Below, in pieces: positions 8,286 to 56,745 of a stretch of DNA of 64,000 nucleotides. The stretch spans positions 35,442,166 to 35,506,165 of the forward strand of contig JAHRHZ010000018.1 in NCBI GenBank assembly GCA_024137785.1, given 5' to 3'. This DNA comes from Ginglymostoma cirratum (taxonomy: Eukaryota). The notes below the pieces were generated by a model. It ran no database searches. It saw nothing but the letters and a program-made list of their open reading frames with translations, and was not told the DNA's origin. Numbering within the stretch: the stretch's first letter is position 1; the number at the start of each line of letters is the position of its first letter. A program made the translations under genes and the position numbers.

Positions 8286-9503
8286 TAATTCTTTGAGAAG
8301 GTGACTAAACAGGTGGATGAGGGTAAAGCGGTTGATGTGGTGTATATGGACTTCAGTAAAGCATTTGATAAGGTTCCCCATGGTAGACTATTGCAGAAAA
8401 TACGGAGGCATGGGATTGAGGGTGATTTAGCAGTTTGGATCAGAAATTGGCTAGCTGGAAGAAGACAGAGGGTGGTGTTTGATGGGAAATGTTCATCCTG
8501 GAGTTCAGTTACTAGTGGTGTACCACAATGATCTGTTTTGGGGCCACTGCTGTTTGTCATTTTTATAAATGACCTGGATGAGGGCATAGAAGGATGGGGT
8601 AGTAAATTTGCGGATGACACTAAAGTCGGTGGAGTTGTGGAAACTGGGGAAGAATGTTGCAGGTTACAGAGGGACATAGATAAGCTGCAGAGCTGGGCTG
8701 AGAGGTGGCAAATGGAGTTAAATGCGGAAAAGTGTGAGGTGATTCACTTTGGAAGGAGTAACAGGAATACAGAGGACTGGGCTAATGGTAAGATTCTCGG
8801 TAGTGTGGACGAGCAGAGAGATCTTGGTGTCCACGTGCATAGATTCCTGAAAGTTGCCACCCAGGTTGATAGGGTTGCTAAGAAGGCGTACGGTGTGCTA
8901 GATTTTATTGGTAGAGGGATTGAGTTTCAGAGCCATGAGGTCATGTTGCAGCTGTACAAAACTCTGGTGCGGCCGCACTTGGAGTATTGCGTACAGTTCT
9001 GGTCGCCGCATTATAGGAAGGATGTGGAAGCATTGGAAAGGGTGCAGAGGAGATTTACCAGGATGTTGCCTGGTATGGAGGGAAGGTCGTATGAGTAAAG
9101 GCTGAGGGACATGAGGCTGTTTTCGTTAGAGAGAAGAAGGTTAGGAAGTGACTTAATAGAGACATACAAGATAATCAGAGGTTTAGGTAGGGTGGACAGT
9201 GAGAGCCTTTTTCCTCAGATGGTGACCGCTAGCATGAGGGGACATAGCTTTAAATTGAGGGGTGATAGATATAGGACAGATGTCAGAGGTAGATTCTTTA
9301 CTCAGAGAGTAGTAAGGGTGTGGAATGCCCTGCCTGCAACAGTAGTAGACTCGCCAACTTTAAGGGCATTTAAATGGTTGTTGGATAAACATATGGATGA
9401 TAATGGAATAGTGTAGGTTAGATGGGCTTCAGATTGGTTTCACAAGTCGGCGCAACATTGAGGGCCGAAGGGCCTGTACTGTGCTGTTATGTTCTATGTT
9501 CTA
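8286..9503 (+). mobile_element. 5'-truncated CR1-clade LINE (HER1-like): disrupted RT/ORF2 C-terminus plus 3' UTR
   Basis: ORFs 8301-8531, 8538-9098 and 9111-9416 are one reading frame broken by two stops. Motifs include VDVVYMDFSKAFDKVPH, SGVPQ*SVLGPLLF, KFADDTK, RPHLEYCVQFWSP and FFTQRVV. The 3' end is GGGCCGAAGGGCCTGTACTGTGCTG with a GTTCTAT repeat tail. Confidence 0.96.
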
Positions 9504-47800: not shown

Positions 47801-49363
47801 TGCCCTCTTGATGCTTGTTCCAAAATGCTTCCCACCAGAATATGCATTTGGTTTGCCTGGTAAATTACCCTGAATTTATTTTTGACTGCATTTTCTTCAC
47901 TTGTGTTCAAAGCATTGTTCTGTATCTCTCAAGCATTTTCTCACATACAAGCCTTCACAGAAACTTGGCATTGTTTCCCTTAGTTTTGCTTTTGAAAAGC
48001 CTACTGGTACACATATACGTCCTATCAATAATAAGCAGTTTAACAACATTTCATGTTTATTTGACAGTTATACTGTGATTCCTAAAGTTGTTGGATAAAG
48101 TCATTTGATGTTCTGCAGGCACCTAAAACACGCAAGTTAAGCAGGTATTTACTGATTGTGAAAATATTGGTAAAACAAAAAGCATTTTATTGCACATTGG
48201 CATTATACTTCTCAACTGCCCCACATTTTCTGAGACATCACACAAGGACTCTCTGTCGTGACTGACTGATTCAGTTCATATTAACCAAGAGTTCATCTTA
48301 CTAAAGCAGAGTTGTCTCAATAATTCTTTAAAATAAGCCTTGACAAAAAAAACTGTTCATAATGGCTGCAGCCAGTAGCAGGTATCCCTCACTATGGGTA
48401 ATTTTTGGATATTATTATGGCTTTTATCCATATTGACGAATAAAGAAATTCACTGCCAAGCTTTAAAGTGTGGAAAATATAAGGTATGCATTTTTAATGT
48501 TGGCAATACTTGATTTTGTGGGTTAATTTTCTCAGTTTGCCTTGTACCTCAATTTATGGAAGAATGATTCTTGTTTACTTTCAGTTTTGGTGCAAATCTC
48601 TGGGATTGCGTTTATGTTAAATCATGCTGTCAATTAACTTTTAGTTACAACGTACAAACTGCCATTTTACCGTGCTGACATCCTATGTTTGCTATTTCTA
48701 AAGATAAGATACATGGCCTCTTTTCCATCTCCAGTCTTTCAACCTACCCAAAACCCTCACTGATATTAGTACAGACGAGGTCGTTTTACTGAGTATGTGT
48801 AAATATCATGTATTTTAGGTTCTTTCCAAAGTCTTCATTTTTTTTGCTGCAGACAGTCCTGGGACAGTAGTTCCTTTCTGCTTAGGCAAGCAGCCCTTAG
48901 GAGGTTTTGGTGAATGAAGTGCTTGATCTTAATATGAAGAAAAGTGCACAACTGGTTTCTGCTGACATGCCTCCTTAACATGTACCAAAAGCTACACATG
49001 AGTAAGATTGGAATCATACTGCAAGCTGTCTTCGTCTTGCGGCTATCCATCTTTTCCAGGAAAAATGGATACCAAGGCCTGGAGTTTCATCCAGAAGGGG
49101 GCATCCTGAGTCAGGTCGTTTCCTAACTTGCGATTCTCCCCCAACTATGTAGTGCCCTCTAATGTTATTTTTGTTGTGAGATGGCAAGGTTGTGCTGGAG
49201 ACAGGGACACCATCTCTTGAGGGAGAAATAAGGTAGCAATGTGAGAATTTGCTGAGGCTGACAAGTTTGAGAGCGTGTTTGTGTTCTCTGAAACATCTTA
49301 GTTTCATAGATGACTGATTGCTCTGACTTCTCATACAGCCCCACCAAAATCCCTTCCTATTCA

Positions 49364-49694
49364 GAGAATCCCTACAGTGTGAAGGAGCCGATTTCAGCCC
49401 ATGGGGTCAGCACTGACCTTTCAAAGATCCAGACCCACCCCCTACCCTAAATCCGTAATCCCAAATCTACCATGCTCGTCTCCCGAGCCTACACACCCCT
49501 GAACATGACAGACAATTTTAGCATAGCAAATCCCACTTAAACTGCATATCTTTTGGACTGTGGGGTAAAGAGCACCTAGTGGAAACCCAAAGAGTCACGG
49601 GGAGAACATACAAACTCCTGACAGGCAGTCACAAAGGCTGGAATCGAACCCGGGTCTCTGGTGCTGTGCTAATCCTTGAGCCACCATGCTGCCC
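49364..49694 (-). mobile_element. HE1-type (V-domain) SINE
   Basis: Minus strand GGGCAGCATGGTGGCTCA...GACCCGGGTTCGATTCCAG (A/B boxes), then GAGTTTGTATGTTCTCCCCGTG...GGGTTTCC...CAGTCCAAAAGAT, and an HER1-like tail ending CACTGTAGGGATTCT. Confidence 0.88.
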
Positions 49695-50256
49695 TGAGGT
49701 TCAAACTTATTTGTTTGACAAATTAAACGTGTGCCTCTGAAACAGTCCAGCAGATGTCCATCTGTTCATCCTGTTTCAAAGATTTTGCTGTATTCGTCTC
49801 TAGACTTTGTAGGCATGTTGTGCAGTGGTACCCTATTGTGAATGCATGGCTGAGCTCCAAAACCCACTAATCAGATACCAGGAAAGGGGTTGGGAATCCT
49901 AGAATCTCTTCCTATTTGCCATTTTTAAATCTAACCACTTCCATTTTGATACAGATGAGGACATGAGAATCCCATTCCAAGTCTCCAGATTTGCATGAAT
50001 TTGCAACTTGGGCCGTTGTTTACAAATAGTGCACCTGATATCATTTTAAGTCAGACACATTTTAGTAGTCTGGGCATCAAAGTGAATTAGGTGGATATCT
50101 GATGTAAAAATGGGTCAATTTCAAGGCTTTACTGTCATTTTCAAGTTCCTTAATGTTGAATTTGTCTATTATAAAACCTGCCTGTAAATGCTTGATGATG
50201 ACAATCAAGAGAGACACCTATACCAGTGCAGATTAAAGATTTGCAATTGAACTTAG

Positions 50257-51145
50257 CTAAGTACATGATTACAGCAGGTCAAGCAGCATCATAGGAGCAG
50301 GAAAACTTGACGTTTCAGGCCTAGACTCTTCCAGATGACATTCTGAGGACCAGGGTTCAAATCCAACCACAGCAGATGTTGGGATTTGAATGGAATAAAT
50401 ATCTGGAATTCTGAGTCTAAATGATGACCATGAACCCATTGTTGATAGTCAGTAAAACCCATCTGGTTCACTAATGCTCTTCAGGGAAGAAATTGGCCAT
50501 CCTTATCAACACGTGAGTCCAGACCCACAGCAATGTGGTTGACTCTTAACTTCCCTTTGGGCACTTGGGGATGGCCTAGCTCGCCCTCATCCTCTAAATG
50601 AATTATTAAAAGGTACTGGAACACATGGTACTGGCAAAGTAGACAATGCCTGTAAGAAGTGTGTACTGTAACTGAATGCTTGCATTTCCTCTCCACCAAG
50701 AGGTGAACTGCCAATAACCAGTTGGATTAGCACTGATATTAGTTACATTACAGAGATTAGACAGAAACCAGATCAATTAAAAATTCCCCAGTCGGGGAAC
50801 TGAAGGAAGACAATGGATCCACATTTTTACCTGTTCAAGTCCAATGAATTTGATAAAACATGTAAATTCTATCTTCACACTGGTGTATTGATGAGGTTCA
50901 CAGCTCTTTAGAAGTTTGAATGTGCTAAACTGCATTAAAGTGTGTGCTATTAAAATACAGCCTCAAGTAGCATATTATTGTCAATGTGCCTTTACTTCAG
51001 ATTTCTGATGAAGGGTCTAGGCCCAAAATGTCAAGTTTTCCTGCTCCTATGATGCTGCTTGACCTGCTGTGTTCATCCAGCCCCATGCTTGTTATCTCGG
51101 ATTCTCCAGCATCTGCAGTATCTTTTATCTCTAAGTACATGATTA
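50257..51145. mobile_element. Penelope-like (family A) composite insertion: inverted termini enclosing a captured 665-bp local sequence, flanked by a 15-bp TSD
   Basis: CTAAGTACATGATTA at 50257-50271 and 51131-51145. The left arm (50271-50331) is the reverse complement of part of the right arm (50996-51132). The interior 50331-50995 duplicates 52745-53394. Confidence 0.85.
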
Positions 51146-52744
51146 GTTGTTTTAAAATGCTAGTGGGCTTTTTATACCTATTTCTGGTTGTATTGGCAAG
51201 TTGATTTTTGGAACTGAGAGAAAAGTTCTATCCTGGCCCTTTTGCCTGCATATCCGATAGCAACAAGAGAACCACTGTGACTGGGGGGCCATGAGGAGGC
51301 AAACCAGCAGTTATTAGTGGAAGGGTCTCCAGCTGCAAAGAGAAGAGAGAGAAGGAGAAGAGGTCAAAGGAGCCCTTATCCCAAATGAGTTCATAAGACC
51401 AAAGCATCTTCCCTTCGATTCACTACAGAGAGGAGGTTTGAACAAGTGATGTTGCACCAATTGGGCTCCAGCACTAGGTCACACACTTCATTACCTGGGG
51501 CTCATATGATGACTGTCGGCCTGAGTTTATAAACCTTGGGGAGATGACAGGTGGTGGCAGGTGATAGAAACACTTTGTCAAAATGAGTAGTGCACCTCCT
51601 CCCTTGTGGAGTCAGTGAAGCAGGAGGACAGGATTCTGAGCTTCTCCACAATCACAGACTTGGTGCAGGTCTTTAATGCGTAGCCCAGTCCGTGGCAAGA
51701 GGCTGGAGAATATGTGAACAAGAAGGATGTCCATTCATTGGCTGTGCAGCGCATAATGTTGGCCTAGCTTGGGTGCGCTTCCTTGGCAGTTGCTGTGGTG
51801 CATCTATCCTGCATCAGCTCCCCACTGGTTCTCACTGCAGCTGGTCTCTTGAATGATCAACAGACTACTTGTGTAAAAGAATAATATGCGGTGAATCCAT
51901 GGTTCATGACAGCTTTTGGGAACCCACACACAGACTACAGAGGTGTGATCATGGCTCTATCACTAGAGGCACGCTTGTATCATAGGTCAGCACAAATCAA
52001 TATCCTGAAACCCTGGATGTTCAGCATGAAAGCAGCCTGCATATAGTTTTGAGAGAGTCTCCTAAATTGCTGAAGAATGTTGTACACTACATATGTACAC
52101 TGTACATATACACTGTAGACTACTAATCTTGAAAAGAGCCAAAAAACTGGAATGAAGGAATAGAGGCAGAGCTAAAAGTGGCATCATGATGTGATGAGGA
52201 AGAGTAAAGGCACTAATCCTGTCAGCACCAGAGCTATATACCAGCAGATTATTCAGAAAAGCAATCATCCCACCCCCCTGCCCCTATCCATACCAACAGC
52301 CTCTCCTACCATCAGACCCAGTCCTTCCATTCTCCAGATGAATGATCTCAACTTAACCATCACCATTGGTACTTTACACACTTCACATAACCTAGTCAAT
52401 AAACAATGAAACTTTACAAAACAGGAAATTCAATGAAAATTTGTAATGCCAAATTGGCAGAATATACATACAAAATCTAAGTGTCACCCTGAGTGCTAGC
52501 CTGTAGTACTGTTTTTGCTCATCTTGTACATAGCAAAGTGTTAGCCTACAATCTACAGGATGAGAGATGCAAGGCTGCTGTATTCCCAATGAGGATGTCC
52601 ATTGACTTATTGTAATTTTCCACGAAGAATTTCATACTGCTGGCTGAAAATCTTTGCAGCACCCTTTTGAAGTACATTATTCATGTTCAAGTTCAAGTGG
52701 GAAACAACAGCCTTATGTTATTATTGGGCTGTTAGTCCAGAGAC

Positions 52745-53394
52745 CCAGATGACATTCTGAGGACCAGCGTTCAAATCCGACCACAGGAGATGTTGGGATT
52801 TGAATGGAATAAAAATCTGGAATTCTGAGTCTAAATGATGACCATGAACCCATTGTTGATAGTCAGTAAAACCCATCTGGTTCACTAATGCTCTTCAGGG
52901 AAGAAATTGGCCATCCTTATCAACACGTGAGTCCAGACCCACAGCAATGTGGTTGACTCTTAACTTCCCTTTGGGCACTTGGGGATGGCCTAGCTCGCCC
53001 TCATCCTCTAAATGAATTATTAAAAGGTACTGGCAAAGTAGACAATGCCTGTAAGAAGTGCGTACTGTAACTGAATGCTTGCATTTCCTCTCCACCAAGA
53101 GGTGAACTGCCAATAACCAGTTGGATTAGCACTGATATTAGTTACATTACAGAGATTAGACAGAAACCAGATCAATTAAAAATTCCCCAATCGGGGAACT
53201 GAAGGAAGACAATGGATCCACATTTTTACCTGTTCAAGTCCAATGAATTTGATAAAACATGTAAATTCTATCTTCACACTGGTGTATTGATGAGGTTCAC
53301 AGCTCTTTAGAAGTTTGAATGTGCTAAACTGCATTAAAGTGTGTGCTATTAAAATACAGCCTCAAGTAGCATATTATTGTCAATGTGCCTTTAC
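52745..53394 (+). repeat. Source copy of the local duplication (SINE body plus about 370 bp of flanking sequence)
   Basis: Near-identical to 50331-50995 (about six substitutions by eye and one 15-bp indel). Here the SINE head continues upstream to about 52708. Confidence 0.95.
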
Positions 53395-54085
53395 ATCAAC
53401 TTTTTCTGTTTGCAGTGGCTCTTTGTGGTGAATTTGTATAATGATACAAAGTATTTTGGATGGTGATGATAAAAATAATCCTTATTCTTTTTAAGAAGGG
53501 GTTGTGCTATACTTGAAGTTTGCACTTGCAGTTGTTCCCCTATCCACCCCTGTACCCGACCCTATCTTCAAAGACCTAAATCTTGGCCAAGCAATCAGAA
53601 GAAGAATGATCGTGTCAGGCCGATGGAAGTGAAGCCAGTAAATGAGTCAACCCCCGCCCCCACCCCCGTCACACTTTTATGTTTTCCAGCAGATGAGGAG
53701 AGCACAGTGCCCAGAAAGTGATTTGCTGCCCATTCTCTTTGGTTTGTAAAGTACCTGAACTGAGGGCCAGTATTTCTAACAAAAACTTTCTTATATTGAG
53801 GAGGGAAAAATGTAATTCTTTATGTCTTCTAAAAGCGAACTTGTACATAAAGTATGAAACATTATTCCTCTATGAAAGCCCTATCTGCTACTTGCAACTA
53901 ATTGTTTTATCGCCACTTAGGAAATAAATGGAAGATTTTCACTGGCAATGCGTTATGCCACAGAGTGGTGGCTGATGGGATTGCATTTGCAATTCCTTCC
54001 CAGTCAAATGTTGGGTTTGGTGGATGCCAGGCACCAACCTACTGGAAGGAAGAAAAAGCCAGTGTGGTCCAGACCGGAACCCTTC

Positions 54086-54116
54086 TGCACCCCCTGGTGG
54101 CCAGTTCAGAACAACA
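54086..54116 (-). promoter_or_regulatory. CTCF binding motif
   Basis: Minus strand TGTTGTTC-TGAAC-TGGCCACCAGGGGGTGCA: near-consensus core (TGGCCACCAGGGGGCGC) with an upstream-module-like TGTTGTTC 5 bp before it. Confidence 0.65.
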
Positions 54117-54434
54117 TCTGCAGTGCTCCGGGATCAGACCGACCAATCCCTGCATTGTAACCAGTGTGCTGAACAGAGAGATCAAACTGAGGAAGTACAT
54201 AACTGAAGAAAGTTGGAGGTATCTTAGCCCCACACAGAAGAAAAAAGCCAAAAAACATTTTTCCATTAGGTTAAATATGTCCTCATTGTTCTTTCACATT
54301 GACTAAGTGAATGATCAAATCTGCAATAATTATGATAATTGTCTTTGCATATCAGTGTAGCAAATACTGACTATGCCTAATTTTAAGGCAGCCCACTGGT
54401 GTAAACATGATGGCCATGGAAAAGTGGCAACAAA

Positions 54435-54561
54435 TGAAGAAGGGTCTAGGCCCGAAACGTCAGCCTTCCTGCTCCTGTGATGCTGCTTGGCTTGCTGTGT
54501 TCATCCAGCTCTACACCTTGTTATCTCAGATTCTCCAGCATCTGCAGTTCCTACTATCTCT
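54435..54561 (+). mobile_element. Short Penelope-like family A terminus starting inside the hammerhead core
   Basis: TGAAGAAGGGTCTAGGCCCGAAACGTCAGC...ATTCTCCAGCATCTGCAGTTCCTACTATCTCT, homologous to 51006-51132. Confidence 0.85.
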
Positions 54562-55226
54562 AAATCACTTACTGTCTCCTTTAAGATGGTTGCTAACATC
54601 TTGGAAGATGCCTTACAATGGATGGCGTGCGTGTCTGCCCGTTAATAGTGCTAAACGTTTTTAATATGTAAATTATGTTCCCTATGTATGTACAGACAGC
54701 AATTTCAAAAAAAGGCTCCAAATCTTTTCTCAGTTAATTTTTTGTGATATTAGGAAGAGACAATCTAGACTGTGCTGGAGTACTTTGGGTTGCTGCCTTC
54801 TTAACCACTCATCCCAAATCTCCCGTGATCAGCTCTCCCTCCATTCATTCTCAGACCTGTGTGCTCCTGGCCTGCTCTATTCCACGGATTGAGTGGTGAG
54901 CTGGAACAGGATGTCTGTTTGCAATGTGCAGTTTTCTGGGGCCATGCAAAACTAGGCCAACGGTCGATGGCATAAAGGTCATAATCTACGTCATTATCTG
55001 TACCCTCTGTGCATGCCACTGCTCACAAGTAAAGAATCGTTGTTGTTTAGGAAACTCCAAAGTCTCTATGTATCCACCGGTGTATGTGTGTACGAGAGAG
55101 GGACAGAGATAGAAAGAGACTGAGAGTGGAATTTTGACATTCGAGGAAGGAAGCAGGAGTCACAAATGTTCTCACGTCTTGTACACGCCCCCAGGGTTCA
55201 CAGTCATGGGAATTTGACCGGGAAAT

Positions 55227-55680
55227 CTGTGGCTCAGTTAGTCGCACTCTTGCTTCTGAGTTGCAAGATACATGTTTCAATTCCCTCTCTGGGGCTGGAG
55301 AGAAAAGACTCGCACTGTCGTGCAGTGCTGAGGAAGTACTGCGCTGCCAGATGTGCCGTCTTTCAGATTAGGTGTTACCGGGACCCCATCTACCTGTTCA
55401 GGTGGATGTAAAGTATTCTCTGGCACTATTTTGAAGATGGACATGGGAGTTACCCTCAGTGTCCTGTCTACTATTTATCCCTTGATCAGGATCACAAAAT
55501 ACAGATTGCCTGGTCATTATCACATTGCAGTTTGCGGGAATTTGCTGCGTGCTAATTGGCTGCAGTGTTTCCTGCATTGCTACAGTGACGACACTTCAAA
55601 TGTAAGTATTTCATTTCCTGCAAAGCACCTTGATGTGTCCAGTGATTGACATAGCTTTTTTCACAATGTCAGCCTTTACT
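55227..55680 (+). mobile_element. Near full-length Deu-domain SINE (SacSINE1-like)
   Basis: tRNA-like head GTGGCTCAGTTAGTCGCACTCTTGCTTCTGAG, Deu core GGTGGATGTAAAG...TGGCACTATTTTGAAG...CTGGTCATTATCACATTGC...AATTGGCTGC, and an L2-like tail. Confidence 0.8.
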
Positions 55681-56411
55681 TTTAATCTTTTTACAGAGTC
55701 CACCAGGATGGCAGGGAAGGTGTGAAGGCCTGCCTGCAATACTGGCTTCATGGCATGAGGTCCAGGCAGTTAAACCCTCCCCTGTTGCCTTGGCAAACTG
55801 GAGGTTGAGTGTAAAATTCCACCTTACCTCCTTTAAAGTGCCCTTAATAAGTCCCTTAAAGAAGCTAATTGGCAGCTCGCCTCATGGAACAGAGACTAGT
55901 GTTACCTGCCCTGAACCTCCCTTAGATTAAAATGGCCATGCCAGGAACAAAAGTCTGGATTCTGCCACACCATTTGCTGGCAGTATTTTGGGGGTTCTGC
56001 CTCCTCTGTCTCTGTCCCGGGCAAAGCTAGAAAATTCAATCTTAAGTGCCTATGTGTATCTCATGCTCTGAAATGATAACCTTTGGTATTGCACAAAGAT
56101 GAAATGTCATCTTCACATCACTCTTTTTTTTAATGAGAGTATAAATGATGCCACGTAGTGATGTTAAGGATATCATTTTATTTTGTGGGCGCAGGTGGAA
56201 GTAGTAACTAAGCTTTTATTTTCATGATAAATTTGGTCACTGATTAAAATACTGACATTATTTCTATACTTTTTTTAAGGCTGTGGCTATTGATTGTTTT
56301 GACATTAGTAATTGATGTGATGAGAAAGTTTTTGGATGCGTGAAATATGACACAATATTTGGTGAGAACCGGAATGCAGTGTCGTGTCTTGCGCATTTTT
56401 ACAGCCGAACT

Positions 56412-56745
56412 CTTTTTTTCAGCTTAGCAAGCATGGGGCTGGATGAACACAGCCGGTCAAGCAGCATCATAGGAGCAGAGAAACTTGACGTTTCGGGCCT
56501 AAACCCTTCATCAGAAATGGGGGAGGGGAAGAGGGTTCTGAAATAAATAGGGAGAGAGGGGGAGGCGGATAGAGGATGGATAGAGGAGAGGATAGGTGGA
56601 GAGGAGGCAGACAAGTCGAAGAGGCGGGGATGGAGCCGGTAAAGGTGAGTGTAGGTAGGGGGGTAGGGAGGAGATAGGTCAGTCCAGGGAGGACAGACAG
56701 GTCAAGGGGGCGGGATGATGTTATCTCTGATACTTTTTTTCAGCT
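56412..56745 (-). mobile_element. Penelope-like family A terminal fragment with a 13-bp TSD
   Basis: CTTTTTTTCAGCT at 56412-56424 and 56733-56745. The interior has the family A terminus and the GA-rich subterminal region, ending in a short TTATCTCT that matches the opposite-orientation end. Confidence 0.85.
56483..56518 (-). ncRNA. Intact minimal type I hammerhead ribozyme motif (family A)
   Basis: Minus strand AUUU-CUGAUGA-A-GGG(UUUAGG)CCC-GAAA-C-GUC-AAGU: complete core, 3-bp stem II, stem I AUUU/AAGU, loopless palindromic ACGU helix III, GUC cleavage triplet. Confidence 0.75.

What the first reader, a model, noticed from the sequence alone, without database searches (positions are those of the whole stretch)
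50257..53394. Penelope-like insertion that captured 665 bp of neighbouring DNA between inverted, ribozyme-bearing termini
Seen in sequence: 15-bp TSD (CTAAGTACATGATTA), inverted PLE arm (50271-50331), copy of 52745-53394, forward PLE terminus with a decayed hammerhead (50996-51132), TSD. The downstream copy keeps the SINE head that the captured copy lacks, so it is the donor. The copies differ by about six substitutions and a 15-bp indel bounded by GGTACTGG repeats, which argues against an assembly artefact. Established: Penelope-like elements often have inverted terminal segments. Inference: during integration, synthesis switched template onto local DNA or intronic RNA 2.4 kb away and then back to the element. 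That would make the PLE machinery a source of local templated duplications that could copy exons or enhancers.
Basis: partly seen in the sequence, partly recalled or inferred. Interest (0 to 1): 0.78.

Follow-up and report, generated by a model that had tools for sequence, protein, structure and literature searches.

The report
Retroelement insertion filled with neighbouring DNA
A jumping gene landed as two inward-facing halves, and the join between them holds a 665-base copy of DNA from 2.4 kb away; this is real but looks like a rare repair patch, similar to events known for human LINE-1 elements, not a routine way of duplicating DNA.

Summary
The structure is real. The 15-bp TSD, inverted arm, 665-bp copy (6 substitutions, 15-bp indel) and forward terminus are as described. 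A relative's contig shows the empty site with one TSD copy and the donor's start in place. The family is a Neptune-like Penelope element. Only the forward terminus holds a (decayed) hammerhead core. New point: the copy sits inside the inverted arm, about 6 bp from the palindrome centre; taking it out restores, base for base, a junction type found 199 times in the genome. The donor's right edge resembles that junction. Best reading: one-sided, microhomology-primed repair synthesis from local DNA into a two-ended PLE insertion, after (0.48) or during (0.35) its joining. Generality is not supported: 3 of 41 readable two-armed insertions carry 50 bp or more of foreign filler, one is a nested repeat, and no donor was found for the other two. 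Capture between pLTRs (rotifer) and local templated insertions (L1) are in print. New variant of a known kind; interest 0.4.

The parts
50257..50271 (.). left copy of 15-bp target-site duplication
   Evidence: exact repeat; single copy in relative's contig (X3 record 19)
50272..50331 (-). inverted PLE arm, family positions 10-69, starting at an internal site; target end resembles the element there (5 of last 7 bases)
50331..50995 (+). captured copy of 52745-53394: about 280 bp of dispersed repeat body plus about 385 bp without other matches
   Evidence: 50627-50995 has exactly two copies in the assembly
50612..50626 (+). 15 bases present only in the captured copy, between two GGTACTGG
   Evidence: which copy changed is not resolved
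50996..51003 (.). last bases of the inverted arm and centre of the palindrome (TTCAGA-TT-TCTGA); alternatively 4 donor bases plus a G
   Evidence: same junction intact in L032, L033, L037, L038, L039, L077 and, with A for T, in L005, L071, L072, L076, L079; 199 exact matches of the junction pattern
51001..51132 (+). forward PLE terminus with tail; minimal hammerhead motif 51005-51032, decayed at 51025 and 51029
   Evidence: 97-99% to 39 other places; longer copies lead into an RT + GIY-YIG frame
51131..51145 (.). right copy of target-site duplication
52699..52744 (+). head of the dispersed repeat, kept only at the donor
52745..53394 (+). donor segment
   Evidence: its first 130 bp are in place in the relative
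53394..53408 (+). donor edge resembling the palindrome junction (CATCA, then TTTCTG): probable priming site
   Evidence: 9 of 15,000 positions score as well (test chosen after seeing the data)

Best explanation
Step 1 (shown for the family, inferred for this copy): a Neptune-like PLE cut the target with a 15-base stagger and both target ends primed reverse transcription on element RNA, giving a long forward terminus and a short inverted arm that were joined head to head into a palindrome of about 66-bp arms. Step 2 (inferred): that palindrome, once its centre existed, broke about 6 bp left of the centre. The right end's 3' strand (ending ...TGATG) paired with CATCA at the donor edge 2.4 kb downstream on the same chromosome, was extended 665 bases by repair-type synthesis, released, and joined to the left end through one shared base. 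No element base was lost. Step 3 (shown): both copies then drifted apart. The unit has not moved again and neither end keeps an intact ribozyme core. It is a local templated insertion inside a PLE insertion.
For: Empty site and donor start in a relative. Removing 50332-50995 restores a junction seen intact in 11 listed loci and 199 places genome-wide, control 0. Donor edge mimics the junction: 9 of 15,000 positions; exact CATCA occurs at 0.13% of positions. Arms primed separately: in 29 of 60 two-armed insertions the inverted arm reaches further out than the forward piece, which fold-back copying cannot give; PAc extends both nicked strands in vitro (PMC11167929). Element arms look somewhat older than the duplication: CpG changes 3 of 4 against 2 of 10 (p 0.095), other changes 2 of 67 against 4 of 650 (p 0.10). 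L252 shows that palindrome centres of this family do take in other sequence. Two copies only.
Against: The 5-base microhomology needs one later A-to-T change at 50996. The age difference is not significant. TCAG stands before the forward start in 7 of 89 copies, mostly as a short tail without a continuous arm, and 2 of 60 arms end at the same position 10, so exact restoration could be a coincidence of a few percent during integration. L064's filler sits at an asymmetric join with element bases missing, which fits filling during integration. The enzyme (host polymerase or PLE RT) cannot be read from sequence.
Confidence: 0.48

Rival explanations
1. Same synthesis, but during integration: the right cDNA reached the RNA 5' end, gained a short fold-back tail, invaded the donor DNA through CATCA, copied 665 bases and was joined to the left cDNA, which happened to stop at position 10. 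This is the SDSA-like route proposed for L1 templated insertions.
For: Short tails at the forward start are common: G in 55 of 89, TCAG in 7 of 89. Fillers of 10-49 bp in 6 of 41 and of 50 bp or more in 3 of 41 lie at the arm join. L1 precedent: 22 templated insertions (10.1101/2024.08.27.596794). LINE 5' extra bases copied from flanks (PMC4760211).
Against: Needs the left cDNA to stop exactly where the junction is restored (2 of 60 arms). L1 templates are typically under 250 bp and within 15 bp of the site; here 665 bp at 2.4 kb.
Confidence: 0.35
2. One reading: the PLE reverse transcriptase itself jumped onto a nearby nascent RNA (or DNA), copied 665 bases and jumped back to the element.
For: Template jumps are proposed for A. 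vaga PLEs (PMC3846280) and for L1 chimeras (PMC13174262). Multi-piece joins in L062 and L045 show frequent jumps among element pieces.
Against: Return to the exact next base is hard to explain. No exon or transcript evidence (no RNA run was laid). Arms are primed separately.
Confidence: 0.1
3. pLTR-guided transduction: a host transcript holding a PLE terminus next to the donor was reverse-transcribed as a unit, as for the NRPS gene in Adineta vaga.
For: Known for PLEs, with TSD and empty allele (PMC3846280 section 9). An older family copy lies 1 kb downstream of the donor (54435-54561).
Against: The donor has no terminus at its edge; the 54.4-kb copy is 85% alike and of another subtype, and the 1 kb between is not in the insertion.
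Confidence: 0.04
4. Assembly artefact, or an old duplication that merely lies between two unrelated PLE pieces.
For: Palindromic PLE joins assemble badly: 19 of 60 two-armed insertions hold a run of N. No long read was laid; the left junction is not among the contig pieces shown (table cut).
Against: 7 differences between the copies, with derived-looking changes on both; a contig in run X12 crosses the right junction by 5 bases without difference, and a contig of another sample (X15) carries the copy's allele at 50791; 15-bp TSD single in the relative.
Confidence: 0.03

Closest known systems
Endonuclease-containing Penelope-like elements, Neptune type, with inverted pLTRs and 30-40 bp tail (PMC8557442, PMC11167929)
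   Same: RT plus C-terminal GIY-YIG, CX4CXXC linker, head-to-head termini, TSD, two outer end points about 35 bp apart, minimal hammerhead motif.
   Different: This copy has no coding part; the arms are separated by 665 bp of host DNA from 2.4 kb away.
Host DNA captured between Penelope pLTRs in Adineta vaga (PMC3846280)
   Same: Unrelated sequence between pLTRs, TSD, empty allele.
   Different: There a gene was copied to a new place, between direct pLTRs, read as mobilisation in trans; no nearby donor is reported in the sections I read. Here the donor is local, has no terminus of its own, and the copy splits the inverted arm.
L1 templated insertions, SDSA-like (10.1101/2024.08.27.596794) and LINE 5' extra nucleotides (PMC4760211)
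   Same: Non-element genomic DNA from near the site copied into a TSD-bounded insertion.
   Different: Other element class; those templates are typically under 250 bp and within 15 bp of the site, and they sit in a LINE, not between two inward cDNA arms.
Templated insertions at double-strand breaks (SDSA or polymerase-theta type; general knowledge, recalled; listings seen)
   Same: Microhomology at one end, near-blunt join at the other, both break ends kept, local same-strand donor.
   Different: The break lies in a PLE palindrome; 665 bp is long for polymerase theta alone (recalled).

Membership tests
Penelope-like element (EN+) | single frame with RT and C-terminal GIY-YIG endonuclease | tested here: met
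   In family copy L012, not in this copy: GIY-YIG E 2.7e-05, RVT_1 E 0.033 (below cut-off, partial frame), YIDD motif
Penelope-like element (EN+) | CCHH motif with two cysteines between GIY and YIG | tested here: met
   VVYCIRCTRCGFLYIG and two later histidines in L012; definition from PMC8557442
Neptune/Nematis clades | CX2-5CxxC linker between RT and EN | tested here: met
   CNRRKCYTC in L012
Neptune/Nematis clades | RT phylogeny places it in the clade | not tested
   no tree built
Penelope-like element (EN+) | inverted pLTR, TSD and 30-40 bp tail at one end | tested here: met
   TSD called in 111 of 185 copies, mostly 13-16 bp; outer ends cluster at positions 92-105 and 130-132; 59 of 60 two-armed insertions have one long and one short end
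Minimal type I hammerhead ribozyme | intact CUGAUGA and GAAA core around stem II | tested here: not met
   Forward end: GAAAC changed at 51025 and 51029; inverted arm lacks the start of the core. Intact in most family copies listed. Rfam no hit. Core motif recalled; PLE link from PMC7761336.
Minimal type I hammerhead ribozyme | self-cleavage | not testable with these tools
   needs an assay
Non-autonomous PLE derivative (mobile unit) | several dispersed copies of the same composite | tested here: not met
   only donor and copy in the assembly, 2 of 2 candidates
pLTR-mediated transduction (A. vaga type) | donor flanked by a pLTR of the same subtype | tested here: not met
   no terminus at either donor edge; nearest is 1 kb away and 85% alike
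Local templated insertion | insert is a copy of nearby DNA, absent from the ancestral site | tested here: met
Local templated insertion | microhomology at the priming end | tested here: inconclusive
   1 base as it stands; 5 bases if one later substitution is allowed; edge resemblance 9 of 15,000

The most novel reading that the evidence does not exclude
Two-ended PLE integration leaves a join (or a fragile palindrome) that regularly captures hundreds of bases of host DNA, often from the same chromosomal neighbourhood, so that a family with thousands of young copies has made tens of local duplications able to copy small exons or regulatory DNA. The 59-of-60 one-long, one-short rule would then be the genomic trace of a dimer priming both target ends on one RNA.
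Probability: 0.2. Interest if true: 0.65.

Novelty: new variant of a known kind. Interest (0 to 1): 0.4.

Why it matters
PLE integration beyond the first priming step is unresolved (PMC11167929 says so). This locus, with empty site, donor and both junctions readable, shows that the arm-to-arm join can be filled from local DNA, and the family survey gives a clean in vivo rule (one long and one short end in 59 of 60) that fits two-ended priming and can be tested in vitro. As a source of new duplications the effect looks small: one local case, no exon involved, no second case in the sample.

Tried and rejected
Rfam scan of 48000-56000: no match up to E 5. Single-strand folds of the two termini and of an intact copy: no significant z-scores; not informative for a minimal hammerhead. 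TTCAG as a subtype's internal sequence (L027): rejected, it is the palindrome junction form. Eighteen copies without a called TSD, read at plus or minus 5 kb: no distant arm with TSD and no near-identical local donor for the 200 bases upstream. L143 was the wrong neighbour locus and gave nothing on the intended one. Fillers in L010, L201 and L215: element-derived; L201 and L215 were then used as element references, which masks them by construction. L252 filler: its 76-bp inverted ends match many dispersed copies at 95-97% (40 of 382 candidates scored), so a nested repeat, not capture. One further insertion shows 54 non-element bases beside a run of N; best match in about 13 kb around it 77%, unclassified. 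First landing-pad test was misregistered by one base and gave 428 of 15,000; the corrected one is. The relative's contigs leave 50680-50909 almost uncovered; a hole proves nothing, so the ancestral state of the 15-bp indel and the donor's right part in the relative stay open. Pfam on 121 frames of 75 aa or more: only RT fragments near 8.3-9.1 kb, no host exon. PMC12016303: none of five terms found. Earlier-findings look-ups returned nothing.

Full report
Observation. An identical 15-mer lies at 50257-50271 and 51131-51145; no random pair of flanks from the window shared 15 bases (0 of 2,933). Inside are a 60-bp inverted arm (50272-50331), a copy of 52745-53394 (50331-50995; 6 substitutions and 15 extra bases) and a forward terminus (51001-51132). 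A third copy of the dispersed repeat at 30660-30955 matches the donor from 52699 but the copy only from 50331, so the downstream segment is the donor. A search of the assembly with 50627-50995 finds these two places only.

Independent support. Four runs were laid on 49300-52744. In run X3, from a relative about 96% alike in the flanks, one 2,378-base contig aligns to 49640-50239, has 19 letters, then aligns to 51131-52744 and runs on into the donor's first 130 bases. That is the empty site with one TSD copy and the donor in place. In two runs whose flank contigs are nearly identical to the window, one contig crosses the right junction by 5 bases without difference (X12, possibly the source of the assembly) and one from another sample carries the copy's allele at 50791 (X15). 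The left junction is not among the pieces shown, no long reads were laid, and the relative's cover of 50680-50909 is nearly nil.

Family. The terminus matches 39 other places at 97-99% (40 of 1,194 candidates scored), and one pattern alone has 4,917 matches. Longer copies lead into a frame with an RT motif (YIDD), a CX4CXXC linker and a GIY-YIG domain with the CCHH cysteines, the layout given for Neptune and Nematis elements in PMC8557442 (passages). The minimal hammerhead motif of the family is broken here: two CpG-type changes in the forward end, and the arm lacks the start of the core. The title's 'ribozyme-bearing termini' is therefore half right.

How the family inserts. I classified 185 distinct insertions: 89 from the first 100 matches (10 rows forming 5 close head-to-head pairs were not fetched, 1 second view dropped), 28 and 28 from the first 30 loci (2 second views dropped from each), and 29 and 11 picked by hand from the other 70 rows of each. 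A TSD was called in 111, mostly 13-16 bp; 60 also have an inverted arm. Outer ends of both arms cluster at family positions 92-105 and 130-132. In 29 of 60 the inverted arm reaches further out than the forward piece, in 30 less far, in 1 about equally. Copying a cDNA back on itself cannot give an arm longer than its template, so both target ends were primed on RNA, one at each site. This fits the two internal start sites and two-strand extension shown in vitro for PAc (PMC11167929, parts 1-2 of 4 read) and the note that the tail is often at one end only. The window's insertion follows the rule: long forward end, short arm.

Where the copy sits. The bases after the copy (TTCAGA-TT-TCTGA) are the centre of a head-to-head palindrome. 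Setting the arm's end beside them gives the junction found intact in 11 listed loci and in 199 places genome-wide, control 0. So the copy interrupts the inverted arm about 6 bp from the centre with no element base lost. If the junction was the common symmetric form, the right join has a 5-base microhomology (CATCA) with 53394-53398, at the price of one later substitution at 50996. The donor edge as a whole resembles the junction better than all but 9 of 15,000 positions (chosen after seeing the data; a misregistered first try gave 428). The left join shares one base. This is the pattern of one-sided invasion and synthesis followed by end joining (general knowledge, recalled).

Timing. After joining: exact restoration, and arms slightly more decayed than the duplication (CpG 3 of 4 against 2 of 10, p 0.095; other changes 2 of 67 against 4 of 650, p 0.10). 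During joining: short tails at the forward start are common (G in 55 of 89; TCAG in 7 of 89), 2 of 60 arms end at the same position, and L064's filler lies at an asymmetric join. I give 0.48 and 0.35. A jump of the RT onto RNA and back gets 0.10: no host exon was found in 121 long frames and no RNA run was laid.

Generality. Of 60 two-armed insertions 19 hold a run of N and cannot be read. Of the other 41, 3 have 50 bp or more of non-element filler and 6 have 10-49 bp; in the sets not picked by hand it is 2 of 32. L252's filler is another repeat with inverted ends. L064 (183 bp) has no second copy in the assembly or within 5 kb. L198 (410 bp) has no other match above 85% (40 of 1,166 candidates scored). 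The same search finds the window's donor. Eighteen copies without a called TSD show no local donor within 5 kb. Foreign fillers thus recur at a few percent of readable joins, perhaps tens genome-wide (extrapolation), but a nearby donor was seen only here.

What is known. Unrelated sequence between pLTRs with a TSD and an empty allele is described in Adineta vaga (PMC3846280; passages and sections 9 and 11). Local templated insertions are described for L1: 22 cases, typically under 250 bp and within 15 bp of the site, SDSA-like (10.1101/2024.08.27.596794; passages; its supplementary figure on distances not seen). Flank-templated extra bases are described for zebrafish LINEs (PMC4760211; passages). 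Also seen as passages: PMC11702581, PMC7761336, PMC13174262, 10.64898/2026.07.22.740005. Six searches listed no paper on a PLE insertion with an identified local donor; the library lacks most subscription journals.

Verdict. Real, well resolved and lineage-specific; a PLE version of a templated insertion, longer and from further away than typical L1 cases. It is not a mobile unit and, on this sample, not a common route to local duplication. New variant of a known kind, interest 0.4.

Noticed in passing
G000 family survey, L041-L266: One-long, one-short rule: 59 of 60 two-armed insertions have one end at position 130-132 and the other at least 15 bases shorter; several long arms stop at positions 92-102, where the other end starts, as if two RTs met on one RNA.
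   Followed up: partly
G000, L041-L141: Many copies begin at the same base (ATTTCTGATG) with a G in front in 55 of 89, suggesting a fixed RNA 5' end, perhaps a copied cap (inference); short repeats of TCTG or TCAG are often added there.
   Followed up: partly
L064:1316-1500 and L198:1094-1503: Two more TSD-bounded composites with 183 and 410 bp of foreign filler and no donor found in the assembly; L198's filler includes about five tandem 43-bp units.
   Followed up: partly
L252:1330-1610: A 281-bp element with 76-bp inverted ends, of another young repeat family, sits at the centre of a PLE palindrome with no visible target duplication.
   Followed up: partly
window 54435-54561 (+) and 56425-56720 (-): Two more family copies close by: an older subtype (85%) and a young 5'-truncated copy with internal sequence.
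   Followed up: partly
window 8289-9095: Reverse transcriptase fragments in two frames, another retroelement.
   Followed up: no
window 53404-53417: A pyrimidine run ending in CAG, like a splice acceptor, lies just past the donor edge; no open frame of note follows.
   Followed up: no
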